From: Rhynchobatus australiae
Lineage: Eukaryota
DNA length: 64,000 nucleotides
NCBI GenBank assembly: GCA_034780895.1
Contig: JAUZTB010000135.1
Coordinates: 78,337,836-78,401,835 of the forward strand
Reading direction: 5' to 3'
Every line of letters begins with the position of its first letter. The stretch's first letter is position 1. This document shows, in pieces, positions 29,501 to 35,500 of the stretch. Made by a program: the position numbers.

Positions 29501-32500
29501 ATAATTATTAACATTCATCATTTAAAACATGGTTTAAATAAGCAGCAAGTGTTAGCTAGAGGGACAGATCTGTCTGTCAAAAGTTGAGTCATTCAAGCTG
29601 TTTGTGTACAACTTGTGGTGGTCATTTACAAAGAGAGTCTTCCTGGCTACAGTAATCAGTCTGCTTCTCATCATTGTACAATCCAAAAAAAAACTTGGAA
29701 AAGAAAATGTTTTTGAAGCACTGAATATAGCTGAGATTCAAGTTAATTAAAGCAGAAAACTCCAAATAATTAGTTGGATAAAATTAGACAAGTGGAAAAG
29801 CAGTGTTTAAAGCAGGTAATTGTTTCAGGCTGCCAGGGGTAGGGTTGTGGAGGTGTGTTCTGTGGGTGGGGGTCACATTGGGAATCTGGTTTGCTGATCT
29901 GACTAACAGAACATAAGCCTTCATCAGTGGCTGGCCTGCTCAGGAGCACTGGGAACATCACATATAAGTATTTGTCAGTTGATATGAGAGCTTTGATGTT
30001 CTATATGTGGTTTGTTTGAAAATGGCAAGGAGTTTTCAAAGTCTGAATATTGGTAACTGGTTAATTTCCTGAATTACAAGGTTTGGTAGTCTGTTGATCT
30101 GGAAGAAAAGGCTGTTCCTACTTTGAAGATAGTTGCATTTTCTTTCAAAATGACACAGTCATGTAGCACCTGACCACACAGGGTTATTGGGGAGAAATTC
30201 AAAGTTACATGGTCGTTGTAAACATAATACTCAATTTATTAGTTATGCTGATTATTTCAATAAAAGGGAGATAATGAATGAAAATCTTACTGCTTTTGAT
30301 GCTTTTTTTCTTGGGAAGAAAGGAAAATAACATAGTTTTACTTTGCTAACTTTGTATATTTCAAAAGCAGACCTGCTTGACGGTGATCGTGCCTTTGGCT
30401 GGTGTCATTTGGTTCAGTTGGTTATACTCTTGCCTTAGTCAAAGAGGTACTAGTTCAAACCCCTCAAGAGAATTTCACCACATAATCCTAAACCTGATTA
30501 GCAAAAACATTCTTGACAAATGCATTCACTTTTCTTTGCCCAATAATTAACTTTAGCACATAATACCAATGTCACGTTTAATTAAATTTGGTCTGATAAC
30601 TTCCTGTGTATTGGCTTAAAATTTTCACAAAGGGCACTAACTAAAAGCTGGTTATTCTTGTTGTAATCAAGGTCCATTTTCAAAACCAATGCACCCCTGA
30701 TACTGCTCAAATAATATCATCTTCAATATCTTTATTAATATTAATTGTTCAACCTACTAAATTTGGTCAATATCTAGTGGAAGAACTTTGCAGGATGACT
30801 GCTGTATTTAGATTCAGCTGGAAAGGTGGAACAGGGTAGGACAAGGAAGGAGCAGCAATGAAGAAAATCTTTTAAACTGCAAATGGTATTCAGTTAAAAT
30901 TATCCTTAGTACATGTTAGTGTCCCGCTTTGATGGGGAAGAAGTCAAAGTCGGACTGCAGATGCTGGAAAATAATGACTCTGCCCCTGCATTCAACTCCG
31001 CAAGTTATGAGATGTATGTCATTTCACTCCCAGTTAAATGAAGAACCTGAAAATTAAAAAAAATGATGCTGGACTGGAAATTTGAAATCATCAAAGAAAC
31101 ATTCAATAGGTCAGGCAGCATCCATAGAAAGAGAAACAAAGCCAATATTTCAGGTCACTTTGTCAGTACCTTTTGACAAAAAGGTCTCTGACCTGAAATA
31201 TTGAACTTGTTTCTCTTTCCACGGATACTAGCTGATCGACTGGGTGTTTCCAACGATTTGTCTTTAATACAAATGAAGAAAATATTTGGCTAGTATTGTC
31301 ACTAGAGTCACAAAATTAATTTCAGATTTGCACAAGTTGGGTCCTGGATTTATCCATCCCTTAAGTATTTAGCGCCATTGTTTTGTGGGGAACCACATTT
31401 CATCTGTTGTGTTCAAATCTGTCTAATAGAATTATCGAATATCTATTGCTTCTTATCCAATGCACATTTAATATCCTGCAAATTTGTCCACAACTATTTC
31501 TCCCCACTATAACAACTGGTCCTGCTTTAATTCATTTGATATTAACTGAGATACGTTGGGATTGGTTTTGTGATATTAACCAGACTTAATGAAGTTTCAT
31601 GGCAATGAGTTAAAGATGGACAAGGCATCCTCCTGCTATTTAACACCCACTGCACTCCCTCGGCTGATGGTGAATACCACTCGGAAGAAGCACTGATCAG
31701 AACGAGTGAGCCCATTTAAAGGAGCACCTGTGAGAGAAACGTTTCGGGTCACGACCTCCTGCCAGGGCTCGTTGGACTCGAACCGTCGGCTCCAGCTGCA
31801 GCGGATCCCCGAACCTGCTCCGACTTCCCGCCCATCCCGGGAGCTGATACGCCACAGCCCGGGCCCGGATGTGACGCTGCACTGGCGCGAGCATTCGATC
31901 CAAGGGCGGTTGTTCAACGGCCCGGGGAGGCGGGTGCGCGCGCACCCCCCAGGTCACTCGGGGGTGCGCGCGCACGCGTGGCTCCAGGCCCTCGGCCGTA
32001 CGCGATGTCGCTCGTCCGCTCCCAGGCCGCCGGGACGAGCCGCAAGAAGGGGAAGGTGCTCTCTCGAAAGGAGTGGGACAGCACCATCAATGACCTGAGC
32101 GTTCACCGAGCCCACCCGGAGGAGCTGGCGCGGCGCCGGGAGACGCGCGTCTCCAAGAACCGGGCCGCAGCGCAGTGGGAGCTCCGGCAGCGGGCGGCGA
32201 GCGGCGGGCAGAGGCGGCGAGCGGCGCGGACCCAGCAGCGGCCGGTGACGGCCGAGCTGTTGCTTGACCAGTACCGGCTGCGCGACGTGCTGGCTCGGTC
32301 TGACCGCGCTCTGGCCGTGCTGCGGGATCCCTTCGGCGATGCCCCGCGGCGCCAGGCCGGCTTCCCGAACGTCACCGTGGCCCCCAGCGGCGAGCAGCCT
32401 CCCGCCGCGCAGCTGATAGCGCAGAAGGGCGAGCAGCCCACTCAGCTGTCCCTGCTCTGCGAGTCGGTGATGGACTCGCAGGCCCTCAATGAAGCTTCCT

Positions 32501-35500
32501 ACTGCAGAGAGCCGGAGGCAGACGGTTCAGTGTCCGTGCAGCATCAGACAGGTGGTCACCCACTGGAACCGAGAACCCCCGAACCCTTGGGAGACTGGCC
32601 CCAGATATCGCCCACCCGGACCCCAGATGTTGCCTCGGTGGTACACGCAGGTTTAAATGCAACCGCAGCCATCCAGAGAGTGAGGTCCAGAGTGGAAAGT
32701 AGAGCGGAGAATGATGCGGAACCAGGTGACACATCCCCAACTGAATCCACCAGGGTAATCCGGCAAGTACTTCACCCTGCTTCAAGAAACTCTCAGAACG
32801 GCATATCAAAGGACAAAGTTTGTGATGCACCTACCGAAAGAATAGAAAACAGGAGGCCTGAGGACAGGCAGATGAATCTGGAGGTGCTGCAGGAAATGAT
32901 TGAGAAAATTGACAAGGAGCTGGTGGAATTCGATCGCCAAACAGGATGCGAGGTTACCAGCTGGTTGCCCGAGAAGGGTCGTGGTTTAACAGGTTTCACT
33001 TTCTCATTGGTCAGCTTGATCAGCAGATTGACCCACTCTTTAAAAGAGTGCAGAATTCAGCAGTGGCAGGAGAAGGAAAACCATCAGCAACTTCTGGAAA
33101 AATCCAACCATCAGCAAGCATTGATTGATGCGGTAACAGCAGAATTTCTAATGGTACAGAACAAATTTGTTTCGCTGCAGGCTAACCTGCAGCAATATAT
33201 GATCAAAACAGATGAAGAGCTGCACTCACTGAAACAAATGTTGCATAGATCTCCAAAAGCAGAAAGTAATAAACTAAGACAGAGCATTGTTCATGCAGCT
33301 CAGGAGATTGCAGTAGGACAGGAGAGTTTGTATAGTTGCACTTGCCCTAAGAAACAAGCCAGTGTTCTTTCAAAGGTTGTACCAAATGATGACAATGGAT
33401 TTTTAAAAGGCCTGAACCAAAAGCAGCCCTGTGCTTATCAGTACAAAGGGAATCAGTTGGAGAATGAAAAGGGTCAGAGTTTACCTGAACATCCATTTGG
33501 TCCTGCGGTATTGCTTTCTCCTCCAAGACAGAGGAATAGCCAAATAGCAGCTGGATCACAAACCACAGTTAACTTGTGTCAAGAGACCCCTCTATCTTGT
33601 AATGTACATAAGGAATCAAATGAACCCTCACTGATTCTTAAGGAAGCCTCGTATGTTCCACAAGGAGAAAATGACTTTGCCAAACACTTAGCAGCACAGA
33701 ACCAAGTGTCAGATTGTCAGGACCTTGCCCAGCAATGTAAGATTTGTGATGCTATCAGTGAGCACAAGAACCTGAGTCTCACTTCACCTGTTGAGGCTTG
33801 CATGCATCCAGGAGCTGTTGGTGACATGGCAACATGCAATCTGAAAAAAGTGGAAAACACCGTGGAATCTGAAGACAATCAAAATCCTTCTTTGAACAAT
33901 TGGCTTAAACATGAAGCAATGTTAACTCAAATTACTGAGCTACAGTTGCAGAATTCTGCTCTCAAAGCCCAACTTGGTCAGTTCAAAATAGGTAAATTAC
34001 CTGAGCCAACACCACAAATTGAGAAGACTATTCCCAGCACTTCTCAAAGTCTTCAGCAAAGGATTGCTGAGCTCAACCATCAGAGTGCTGAAGCACGCAG
34101 CAAACTTTTGCATCTGATTGAACAGCAAAGACAGATATCCTCTGAGTCAATATCTCCAACCATTTCTCCTATCCCACCCGAGGGAATGGAAACTGGAACT
34201 GGCAGCAGAATGCTGGAAATATTGATCCCATTGCCCAATGTATTGGACTCTTCCACAGGTAGCACACCTTCCCCTGCTAGTAGAGTTAACAGAAATAAAT
34301 CAATAGATAACACTAGTACAGCTAGTTCCACGTTCCACTTGAATAAAGTTGAAGGAAATAGGACACCTGTAACTCGAGGAACAAAACCAGAAAGATTGAA
34401 AGAAGAAGGTTGGTTTGCGCTATCCACTCATACCATGCGATTCTAAAGATGTGAGATATATAAATCTATATTTGGATAATTGAGGAACAAGTAGAAGCGC
34501 TTCCATATTTGTAGGATAAAACACTACAGAAATCTGAAACAGAAAATACATTTTTGAATGATCAGCACAAGAACTACCACTTGTTCTATTCTCTCCAGAG
34601 ATTTCAGATTTTTTTTGTTTGAGCTTTTGTATTTGCTCTGCGTAACTTTGAATGGAAGTGGATAAAATTTTGTGAGCATGGATAGTTGGATATTTTCAAT
34701 TGTGCTGATTGATCTACAGATTAAAAAATACAGGCTATTATGAAGCTGCTGTACTAGAAAGAAATGAGTTGTGGGTGTCCTTGTTTGTACTGCAGTATTT
34801 TTAATTGATCAGTTTTCAATTTTAAGTTTGGGTTAGTCACAAGGAAACTAAGTGATGGGTAATAAATTGGCAATCCATTTTACATCCCTCCATTTATTTC
34901 TATTGCCTTCATTGTAAATAAATGTGAGATGTTTTTTTAAAAAATGCTAAATTACAATCAAGTCTTTTGGGCTGGGATGTTTGGAGTTTTTTTATATAAG
35001 GTTCAGAAATTCTTTTGACTTGGAACAAGGAGTTATCAGTGTTTAAGATAACTTATTTATAATTAAGAATTTTATTACATTTTATACAGATAAATAGATT
35101 ACAATATGATTTGTATTTGGTACATTAATAAAACTTCCACAATATGAACAGAAATGAAAAGAGTGCTTCCTTTTATGGTACTTAGCTCAAAAGCTTCCAA
35201 TGTCATTTCTTGTAAGCTGTCAGAGATTCTCTTGGATCAGGCTCTCTGATCTACCTGCATGAGAGCCCCAACCAGGAATCCTTGAGTGAGAATGGAGAAT
35301 TCATAATTTGGGGATGGGAATACCACCAGAAGCTGAAAGTTTAGGTGTTCAAGGATGAACCATTGATTTATGGATATTGTGGGGTCAAAGAAGAGAGAAG
35401 ATGGAGAACTAATTGGGGACTTGGGAAGGAAGGTGAGAAGAAGTGCAGGCAACAGAACAATGAAATTGAATTCAATAAACTTGATATTTTTCTGCTAGGA

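What the first reader, a model, noticed from the sequence alone, without database searches (positions are those of the whole stretch)
32005..34446. Intronless, intact SPICE1: candidate functional retrogene of a centriole/spindle gene
Seen: a 2442-nt ORF covering SPICE1 from the N-terminal to the C-terminal conserved motif with no introns, stops or frameshifts, while nearly all surrounding elements are decayed. Known: mammalian SPICE1 is a many-exon gene near CFAP44 and SIDT1. Inference: this is a retroposed copy kept by selection. No poly(A) tail or target-site duplication is visible, so it is old. I recognise no exons of the mammalian neighbours in about 30 kb on either side. It may have replaced the parental gene (orphan retrogene) in this lineage.
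Basis: partly seen in the sequence, partly recalled or inferred. Interest (0 to 1): 0.8.

Follow-up and report, generated by a model that had tools for sequence, protein, structure and literature searches.

The report
Intronless SPICE1 gene of a ray
A ray-like fish carries its centriole/spindle gene SPICE1 as one uninterrupted coding exon that looks alive and under selection, a probable old "retrogene takeover" of a kind already known from other genes.

Summary
Window 32005-34446 (+) is an 813-codon ORF with no stop. It matches Pfam SPICE at E=4e-78 and is colinear end to end with SPICE1 of 16 cartilaginous fishes and of bony vertebrates. It reads straight through places where bony-vertebrate isoforms show exon junctions.

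The protein is sister to the stingray/manta pair inside the batoids, with a shorter branch than theirs. Changes on its own branch avoid conserved columns: 9 of 223 versus 52 of 367, p=4e-5. The only CpG island in the 64 kb lies on its 5' end. I therefore read it as a working gene and, most likely, the lineage's SPICE1 orthologue. It is not a decayed copy.

The origin is not settled. I found no poly(A) tail, no target-site duplication, no relic SPICE1 exons and no CFAP44 exon. CFAP44 is the downstream neighbour in a gar. Retroposition with loss of the parent is the best reading (about 0.55). In-place intron erasure remains possible.

Copy number in this genome, exon structure in other sharks and rays, dN/dS and expression could not be tested. 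This is a new member of a known kind, of moderate interest.

The parts
32005..34446 (+). Single-exon SPICE1 coding sequence, 813 aa plus stop
   Evidence: ORF. Pfam SPICE E=4.4e-78. Colinear with 16 cartilaginous-fish orthologues. Continuous across exon junctions inferred from bony-vertebrate isoforms.
31600..32900 (.). The only CpG island in the 64-kb window. It covers about 400 bp upstream of the ATG and the first 900 bp of the ORF. Putative TATA-less promoter plus 5' UTR.
   Evidence: GC 0.52-0.76 and CpG o/e 0.5-1.1 in 300-bp windows, against o/e 0.21 for the whole window. No other 300-bp window passes GC>=0.5 and o/e>=0.5. GC boxes at 31828 and 31904, no TATA or CCAAT. The TSS is inferred, not shown.
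32086..32505 (+). Best-scoring stretch of the Pfam SPICE match (residues 28-167), including EWDST...DLSVHRA and GFPNVTVAP
   Evidence: best stretch 28-167, profile positions 1-146 of 409. Conservation profile 0.63-0.80 identity across 17 sequences.
34399..34443 (+). Conserved C-terminal motif LKEEGWFALSTHTMRF. It contains a donor-like AAG|GTTGGT at the point where the two Pristiophorus isoforms diverge.
   Evidence: Alignment. Sequence. Use as a splice donor here is speculation.
34447..35150 (+). Probable 3' UTR with the first AATAAA/ATTAAA signals (34720, 34861, 34917, 35127). No poly(A) tract follows.
   Evidence: The extent of the UTR is inferred only.
29019..38858 (.). Gap-free stretch that holds the gene together with non-coding AT-rich flanks
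   Evidence: The nearest N runs are 28851-29018 and 38859-38878.

Best explanation
This is the working SPICE1 gene of a batoid (a ray-like cartilaginous fish whose SPICE1 branches next to the stingray/manta pair). Its whole coding sequence lies in one exon behind its own CpG-island promoter.

Shown: the ORF is intact and colinear with orthologues. Its lineage has evolved under purifying selection at an ordinary or slow rate. Its 5' end is the only CpG island in 64 kb.

Inferred: it is transcribed from that island and makes a normal SPICE1 protein. From the literature on the human protein, that protein works in centriole duplication and elongation with CEP120/CPAP, and in spindle and chromosome congression.

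Inferred origin: a fully spliced SPICE1 mRNA was reverse-transcribed and inserted away from the old SPICE1-CFAP44 locus. The copy gained, or brought along, a CpG-rich promoter. The many-exon parent was then lost, which makes this an 'orphan retrogene'. The event is old enough for the tail and target-site duplication to have vanished, and it may be shared with other rays and sharks.

My sub-confidences: functional intronless SPICE1 orthologue about 0.85; RNA-mediated origin about 0.85; relocation plus parent loss about 0.55.
For: Intact ORF and family:
- 813-codon ORF, Pfam SPICE E=4.4e-78.
- Full-length colinearity, including the 9-residue deletion at window residue 169 that 6 of 6 batoid rows share and that the sharks lack, except the two hemiscylliids, which carry larger gaps at that site.

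Placement and rate:
- ML tree: the window is sister to Mobula+Hypanus (100/99) inside the batoids (100/100).
- Its end branch is 0.095, against 0.165-0.177 on the sister side.

Constraint:
- Own-branch changes: 9 of 223 shark-invariant columns against 52 of 367 variable ones, Fisher p=4e-5.
- The nine changes are conservative (S>C, T>S, L>V, V>M, V>I three times, R>K, Q>R).
- The sister stem shows the same pattern: 13 of 237 against 50 of 406.

Intron loss:
- Bony-vertebrate isoforms show at least three exon-junction regions that the ORF reads through.

Not young and neutral:
- In simulation the ORF stays open in 5% of runs at 1% divergence and 0.3% at 2%, with indels.
- Yet there is no tail and no TSD.

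Promoter:
- Sole CpG island at the 5' end, with two GC boxes.
- In mammals 9 of 10 orphan retrogenes use CpG-island promoters (PMC4772013, passages read).

Relocation (weak):
- Gar model P0131 fuses SPICE1 with CFAP44, so the two genes are adjacent on the same strand there.
- tblastn of P0131 against the window hits only the SPICE1 part. The best CFAP44 hit has E=1.6.
- No relic SPICE1 exons in the window: 18 HSPs outside the ORF, all E>=0.95.

One gene per species:
- Each of the 15 named cartilaginous-fish species, and 3 more species, shows one SPICE1 protein cluster.
Against: - The two classic hallmarks of retroposition, a poly(A) tail and target-site duplications, were looked for and not found. 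The retro-origin therefore rests on intron absence alone.
- The synteny test is weak. Only 29.5 kb lies downstream, 1622 N in 17 runs could hide exons, the first roughly 120 residues of CFAP44 are poorly conserved, and SIDT1 could not be tested.
- Whether a multi-exon SPICE1 survives elsewhere in this genome is unknown. No protein above 76% identity is in the collection, so the species itself is not represented.
- A young copy would inherit both the protein-level constraint signal and the CpG-rich 5' end from its parent. Those two points do not date the event.
- The leave-one-out test is weak on its own: 3 of 135 against 27 of 463 for the window, in the middle of the range of the other species.
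- Pristiophorus isoforms X1 and X2 diverge after KPERLKEE. At least one shark model is therefore spliced near its 3' end, and not all cartilaginous-fish SPICE1 genes need be wholly intronless.
Confidence: 0.55

Rival explanations
1. Intron erasure in place. The gene still sits at the ancestral SPICE1 locus, and all coding introns were removed by recombination of the gene with a reverse-transcribed copy of its own mRNA. The native promoter and neighbours were kept.
For: The CpG island extends about 400 bp upstream of the ATG, like an ordinary native promoter. There is no tail and no TSD, as this route predicts. The rate and the tree position are those of an undisturbed orthologue.
Against: No CFAP44-like exon lies in the 29.5 kb downstream, although CFAP44 directly follows SPICE1 in a gar. 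There is no second CpG island. From general knowledge, not tested here: wholesale loss of all coding introns at once is much rarer in vertebrates than retroposition.
Confidence: 0.2
2. An extra copy. A multi-exon SPICE1 parent still exists elsewhere in this genome, and this ORF is an additional retrocopy. It could be a recent, still-unbroken processed pseudogene or a second functional gene.
For: The rest of the genome could not be searched. A recent copy would inherit the intact ORF, the constraint pattern and the CpG-rich 5' end from its parent (caveat).
Against: A neutral copy young enough to keep 813 codons open (1% divergence or less) should still show its A-tail and TSD, and neither is present. 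None of the 18 cartilaginous-fish species seen has two distinct SPICE1 protein clusters. The 'shorter' search found no cartilaginous-fish fragment (1 hit, a frog), though that search scores only about 8000 candidates.
Confidence: 0.1
3. Assembly artefact. cDNA or transcript reads were assembled into the scaffold.
For: The scaffold is a gap-rich draft with 17 N runs, several of exactly 100.
Against: The ORF lies inside 9840 gap-free bases, with about 3 kb of AT-rich, CpG-poor non-coding sequence upstream and 4.4 kb downstream.
Confidence: 0.02

Closest known systems
Orphan retrogenes / retrogene replacement (mammalian cases in Ciomborowska et al. 2013, PMC3548309, listing and start of abstract only; Carelli et al. 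2016, PMC4772013, passages read)
   Same: A single-exon copy of a many-exon gene with an intact ORF, purifying selection and a CpG-island promoter, apparently acting as the species' only gene of that family.
   Different: In those cases loss of the parent and the new location were demonstrated genome-wide. Here neither could be tested. The host is a cartilaginous fish and the gene is SPICE1. I found no paper that holds SPICE1 together with 'retrogene' or 'intronless' (0 papers each).
Amphioxus SYCP1 retrogene replacement (Garstang and Ferrier 2018, PMC5803294; abstract and outline read)
   Same: A large multi-exon gene for a coiled-coil cell-division protein is represented by one coding exon of about 3 kb, with the parent lost.
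   Different: AmphiSYCP1 has a documented new location, a co-opted bidirectional promoter and a new multi-exon 5' UTR. Here there is no neighbouring gene within 30 kb and no transcript data.
Multi-exon SPICE1 of bony vertebrates (for example the gar, bowfin, frog, lizard and duck proteins)
   Same: The same protein family, length class, N-terminal domain, central coiled-coil region and C-terminal EEGWFALS motif.
   Different: Those genes show alternative isoforms that mark coding exon junctions. In a gar the gene abuts CFAP44. The window gene has one coding exon and no CFAP44 nearby.
Processed pseudogene
   Same: Intronless copy of a spliced gene.
   Different: No disabling mutation, no tail, no TSD, a constrained substitution pattern and a CpG island.

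Membership tests
SPICE1 protein family (Pfam PF15678) | Significant match to the family profile above its curated cut-off | tested here: met
   263.8 bits against a cut-off of 27, E=4.4e-78.
SPICE1 protein family (Pfam PF15678) | Full-length colinearity with recognised orthologues, both termini included | tested here: met
   97-100% query coverage with all 16 cartilaginous-fish hits. N-terminus and EEGWFALSTHT aligned. Shares the batoid 9-residue deletion.
SPICE1 protein family (Pfam PF15678) | Orthologue-like position in the gene tree | tested here: met
   Sister to Mobula+Hypanus (100/99) inside the batoids (100/100), end branch 0.095.
SPICE1 protein family (Pfam PF15678) | Localisation to centrioles and spindle, role in centriole duplication | not testable with these tools
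   Known for the human protein only (titles and abstracts in the listing; details recalled).
Retrogene (RNA-derived gene copy) | Lacks the introns of the parental gene structure | tested here: met
   The ORF is continuous across junction regions inferred from isoform pairs in a lizard, a salamander, a frog and a teleost. Intron positions of a true parent in this lineage are unknown.
Retrogene (RNA-derived gene copy) | Poly(A) tract at the 3' end of the copied mRNA | tested here: not met
   Only A9 at 35943-35951 in the 7.5 kb downstream, with no signal at the proper distance. This hallmark decays with age, so its absence does not exclude an old retrogene.
Retrogene (RNA-derived gene copy) | Flanking target-site duplication | tested here: not met
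   9 shared 10-mers against 5.6 by chance, none next to an A tract. This hallmark also decays with age.
Retrogene (RNA-derived gene copy) | Lies at a locus other than the parental one | tested here: inconclusive
   No CFAP44 exon in the window, although CFAP44 abuts SPICE1 in a gar. Only 29.5 kb was examined downstream. SIDT1 was not testable.
Orphan retrogene (replacement of the parent) | No functional parental gene in the same genome | not testable with these tools
   No eukaryotic genome collection is on hand. There are no relic SPICE1 exons in the 64 kb. One SPICE1 cluster per species in 18 other cartilaginous fishes.
Orphan retrogene (replacement of the parent) | Purifying selection on the coding sequence | tested here: met
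   At protein level only: 9 of 223 against 52 of 367, p=4e-5, and no rate acceleration. dN/dS could not be computed because no orthologous DNA was available.
Orphan retrogene (replacement of the parent) | Expression | not testable with these tools
   Indirect only: a maintained CpG island at the 5' end.
Processed pseudogene | Disabled reading frame or neutral substitution pattern | tested here: not met
   No stop or frameshift. Constrained pattern.

The most novel reading that the evidence does not exclude
SPICE1, a gene needed for centriole duplication, was replaced by a retrogene early in cartilaginous-fish evolution. The whole clade of rays and sharks would then have run this core cell-division gene from a single relocated exon with a newly acquired CpG-island promoter for hundreds of millions of years. 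That would make a very old vertebrate orphan retrogene, and a natural experiment in rebuilding the regulation of a housekeeping centriole gene from scratch. Hints, none decisive: 1 of 15 named cartilaginous-fish rows carries an isoform label against 45 of 104 other rows (my count by eye), and full-length colinear models exist in all 16 species, including one from a 690-kb draft scaffold.
Probability: 0.3. Interest if true: 0.5.

Novelty: new member of a known kind. Interest (0 to 1): 0.35.

Why it matters
If it is confirmed as a relocated sole copy, it adds a cartilaginous-fish example to the short list of orphan retrogenes. The gene concerned is an essential centriole/spindle gene whose dosage and cell-cycle timing matter. 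That would allow a direct test of how a stripped-down copy regains correct regulation.

There is also a practical point. Retrocopy pipelines that require a parent in the same genome cannot see such cases. The methods passages of the VGP Phase I preprint describe such a design (PMC13320880).

If it turns out to be in-place intron loss, it would be a rare vertebrate case of wholesale intron erasure. Either way it is an evolutionary curiosity and not a new kind of system.

Tried and rejected
- **Neighbour exons by Pfam.** I scanned 273 stop-to-stop frames of 55 aa or more and 449 of 38-54 aa outside 31600-34450. Five matches came back at E 0.0016-0.0098 (DUF6644, 7tm_6, HK620_9_C, BPTI_nem, Kelch_1). 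About seven are expected by chance, so I rejected them.
- **Whole-frame translations.** I did not pursue it. The shorter stop-free frames were used instead, as before.
- **Rfam and tRNA scans.** Both returned 0.
- **A9 at 35943-35951 as a tail remnant.** Rejected: no signal at the proper distance upstream and no matching TSD.
- **Leave-one-out 'private change' test.** The window's ratio is 0.38, inside the range 0-0.91 of the other 16 rows. It is too weak on its own, so I replaced it with the branch-specific test.
- **'Shorter' and 'longer' protein searches.** Each gave 1 hit. The 'longer' hit was the useful gar fusion. No cartilaginous-fish fragment or fusion was found, but both searches score only about 8000 candidates.
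- **Literature.** 0 papers hold SPICE1 with 'retrogene' and 0 hold SPICE1 with 'intronless'. The shark and retrogene search gave nothing on SPICE1.
- **Not attempted.** I ran no structure prediction, complex prediction or atlas search. They would not bear on the question.
- **Bacterial genome contigs.** Not used, because it is irrelevant here.
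Full report
**What is there.** The stop-to-stop frame runs from 31720, and 32005 is the first in-frame ATG. The next-longest N-free frame outside this locus is 156 aa.

The protein matches Pfam SPICE (PF15678) at E=4.4e-78. In the 5.8-billion-protein collection its best hits are all SPICE1:
- Mobula birostris and Hypanus sabinus, 76%
- Rhinoraja longicauda, 71%
- an unnamed record P0005, 69%
- Narcine bancroftii, 68%
- ten sharks, 47-61%
- Callorhinchus, 44%

Bony vertebrates score lower. 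Sturgeon, gar, bowfin and ostrich reach 34-36% over 98-100% of the query (209 hits, 120 listed). Nothing is closer than 76%, so the window's own species is not in that collection.

The sequence is not human. It is 29-38% identical to the tetrapod and bony-fish SPICE1 proteins and groups inside the rays. I built no spliced model, because the gene is a single open exon. No exon-by-exon search or joined step arose. The 17 N runs (1622 N) were left as they are.

**Intronless relative to what.** The exon structure of mammalian SPICE1 is something I only recall, so I looked for evidence in the calls. Isoform pairs returned differ by clean blocks:
- A lizard (Hemicordylus X2/X6) skips 44 residues, equal to window residues 348-391.
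- A salamander (Ambystoma X3/X7) has a 20-residue insert at window residue 215 and lacks about 89 residues around 454-519.
- A frog (Ranitomeya X3/X4) differs by one Q at residue 671.
- A teleost (Seriola X5/X2) differs by 8 residues at residue 672.

These are footprints of coding exon junctions in bony vertebrates. The window ORF reads through all of them without interruption.

**Whose gene it is.** An ML tree of 24 SPICE1 proteins puts the window sequence sister to Mobula+Hypanus (100/99) within a batoid clade (100/100). Skates and the electric ray lie outside that pair, and sharks and the chimaera lie beyond. The window shares the 9-residue deletion at residue 169 that all six batoid rows carry.

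Its end branch is 0.095 changes per column. The sister side measures 0.129+0.036 (Mobula) and 0.129+0.048 (Hypanus), so there is no acceleration. It behaves like the orthologue of a ray lineage that split off just before the stingray/manta group.

**Selection.** Instead I inferred changes on the window's own branch. These are columns where Mobula and Hypanus agree with at least one outgroup batoid and the window differs. I then asked where those changes fall relative to conservation among ten sharks, an independent set.
- Shark-invariant columns: 9 of 223 changed (4.0%).
- Shark-variable columns: 52 of 367 changed (14.2%), Fisher p=4e-5.
- The nine changes at invariant columns are conservative.
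- The sister stem shows the same pattern: 13 of 237 against 50 of 406, p=0.006.

A cruder leave-one-out test put the window (3 of 135 against 27 of 463) in the middle of the other 16 species. There is a caveat. If the intronless copy were very young, this signal would have been earned by its parent.

**Age and hallmarks.** I simulated neutral change on the ORF, with indels at 0.1 per substitution. The frame stayed intact in 23.6% of runs at 0.5% divergence, 5.5% at 1%, 0.3% at 2% and 0 of 4000 at 5%. A neutral copy would therefore have to be very young, and should still carry an A-tail and target-site duplications. Neither is present:
- The only A-run of 8 or more in the 7.5 kb downstream is A9 at 35943-35951.
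- Direct repeats bracketing the gene do not exceed chance (9 shared 10-mers against 5.6 expected, none after an A tract).

The copy is thus either old and maintained, or it did not arise by classical retroposition.

**Promoter.** The only CpG island in the 64 kb is at 31600-32900, with GC up to 0.76 and o/e about 1.0-1.1 against 0.21 for the window. The rest of the ORF has o/e 0-0.24. Two GC boxes lie upstream of the ATG, and there is no TATA or CCAAT. This is the look of a housekeeping promoter kept unmethylated in the germ line. In mammals, 9 of 10 orphan retrogenes use CpG-island promoters (PMC4772013, passages read). No transcript data were available.

**Surroundings and synteny.** Pfam scans of 722 flank frames gave nothing beyond chance. 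Rfam and tRNA scans found nothing. Six SPICE1 proteins searched by tblastn hit only the ORF: 8 HSPs inside it, and 18 elsewhere, all with E>=0.95. No relic parental exons lie within 30 kb.

The 'longer' protein search returned one useful record. P0131 is 'CFA44 protein, partial [Atractosteus spatula]', 2660 aa. Its first third is SPICE1 (Pfam SPICE at residues 85-491) and the rest is CFAP44 (WD40 propellers from about residue 977, Cfap43-type coiled coil at 1754-1903). The fused model shows that in a gar SPICE1 is followed directly by CFAP44 on the same strand. That agrees with the human arrangement, which I only recall.

tblastn of P0131 against the window finds the SPICE1 part (E=6e-66 and 2e-14) and nothing from CFAP44 (best E=1.6). 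This leans towards a relocated gene, but the evidence is weak. Only 29.5 kb lies downstream, ray genes are large, the N-terminus of CFAP44 is poorly conserved, and N runs could hide exons. SIDT1 could not be tested because I had no sequence from a tool.

**Other cartilaginous fishes.** Each of the 15 named species shows one SPICE1 cluster. So do three more species found as cluster members: Mobula hypostoma, Hemitrygon akajei and Carcharodon carcharias.

Only Pristiophorus carries isoform labels. Its X1 and X2 differ solely after KPERLKEE and both lack GWFALS. The window has a donor-like AAG|GTTGGT at exactly that point. Callorhinchus has a full 814-aa cDNA-derived protein, and in a later annotation two adjacent models of 482 and 300 aa on one contig.

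By my own count of the list, 1 of 15 named cartilaginous-fish rows has an isoform label against 45 of 104 other rows. This is a faint hint that a single coding exon may be widespread in the clade.

**Artefact.** The ORF sits in 9840 gap-free bases (29019-38858), with AT-rich, CpG-poor non-coding sequence on both sides. cDNA contamination is unlikely.

**Verdict.** A functional, selected, intronless SPICE1 is well supported. 'Retroposed and replaced the parent' is the most likely route, but it rests on intron absence, a weak synteny negative and general knowledge that wholesale in-place intron loss is rare.

The kind of event is known: orphan retrogenes (PMC3548309, listing and start of abstract; PMC4772013, passages) and amphioxus SYCP1 (PMC5803294, abstract and outline). 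I found no paper linking SPICE1 with 'retrogene' or 'intronless'.

**What stayed unchecked.**
- The rest of this genome, and any shark, ray or chimaera genome.
- dN/dS and expression.
- Paper supplements, which are closed. The VGP preprint's retrocopy tables (PMC13320880) could not be seen. Its method needs a parent in the same genome, so it would probably miss a case like this.

Noticed in passing
window 2222-2569 (-), 45439-45783 (-), 49442-49822 (+), 51240-51347 (+): Short open frames whose translations (for example ...LERWRLKGDLMEAYKI......FSQTVVNLWNSLPREAVEA...FKTQLD...KCEVMHFGKRN..., VVKKANGILVFVAKG) look to me like the C-terminal tail of CR1/L2-type LINE ORF2 proteins common in shark genomes. 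That resemblance is recalled. Pfam gave no match.
   Followed up: partly
window 45533-45632 (N run) and its flanks: The same peptide-coding stretch (SNCVLNIFNEVAST in one frame) appears on both sides of a 100-N gap. This is the usual sign of an overlap left unmerged by a scaffolder. The many 100-N runs suggest a short-read draft assembly.
   Followed up: no
window 31932-31945 and 31962-31975: An exact 14-nt direct repeat GGGTGCGCGCGCAC, 30 bp apart, just upstream of the ATG inside the CpG island (family D9). It also scores as a self-inverted match at 31931-31978. It may be a paired factor site or simply GC-rich low complexity.
   Followed up: no
window 34405-34413: A donor-like AAG|GTTGGT inside the codons for EEGW. 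It lies exactly where the two annotated Pristiophorus SPICE1-like isoforms leave the conserved sequence and lose the GWFALS motif. This may be a cryptic or alternative donor shared by elasmobranchs.
   Followed up: partly
protein P0131 (Atractosteus spatula, not in the window): An annotated 'CFA44 protein, partial' of 2660 aa is a fusion of SPICE1 and CFAP44. It is probably a read-through or merged gene model. It is useful as evidence that the two genes are adjacent on one strand in a gar.
   Followed up: yes
Callorhinchus milii cluster: The chimaera has a full 814-aa SPICE1 from cDNA. A later annotation gives two adjacent models (482 aa 'SPICE1' and 300 aa 'SPICE1-like') on one contig. The locus is either split by an assembly problem or disrupted there.
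   Followed up: no
Chiloscyllium and Hemiscyllium SPICE1: The two hemiscylliid sharks have much shorter proteins (724 and 739 aa). They share gaps at window residues 169-188 and 237-283 and sit on a long common branch (0.26). This points to lineage-specific deletions or model problems.
   Followed up: no
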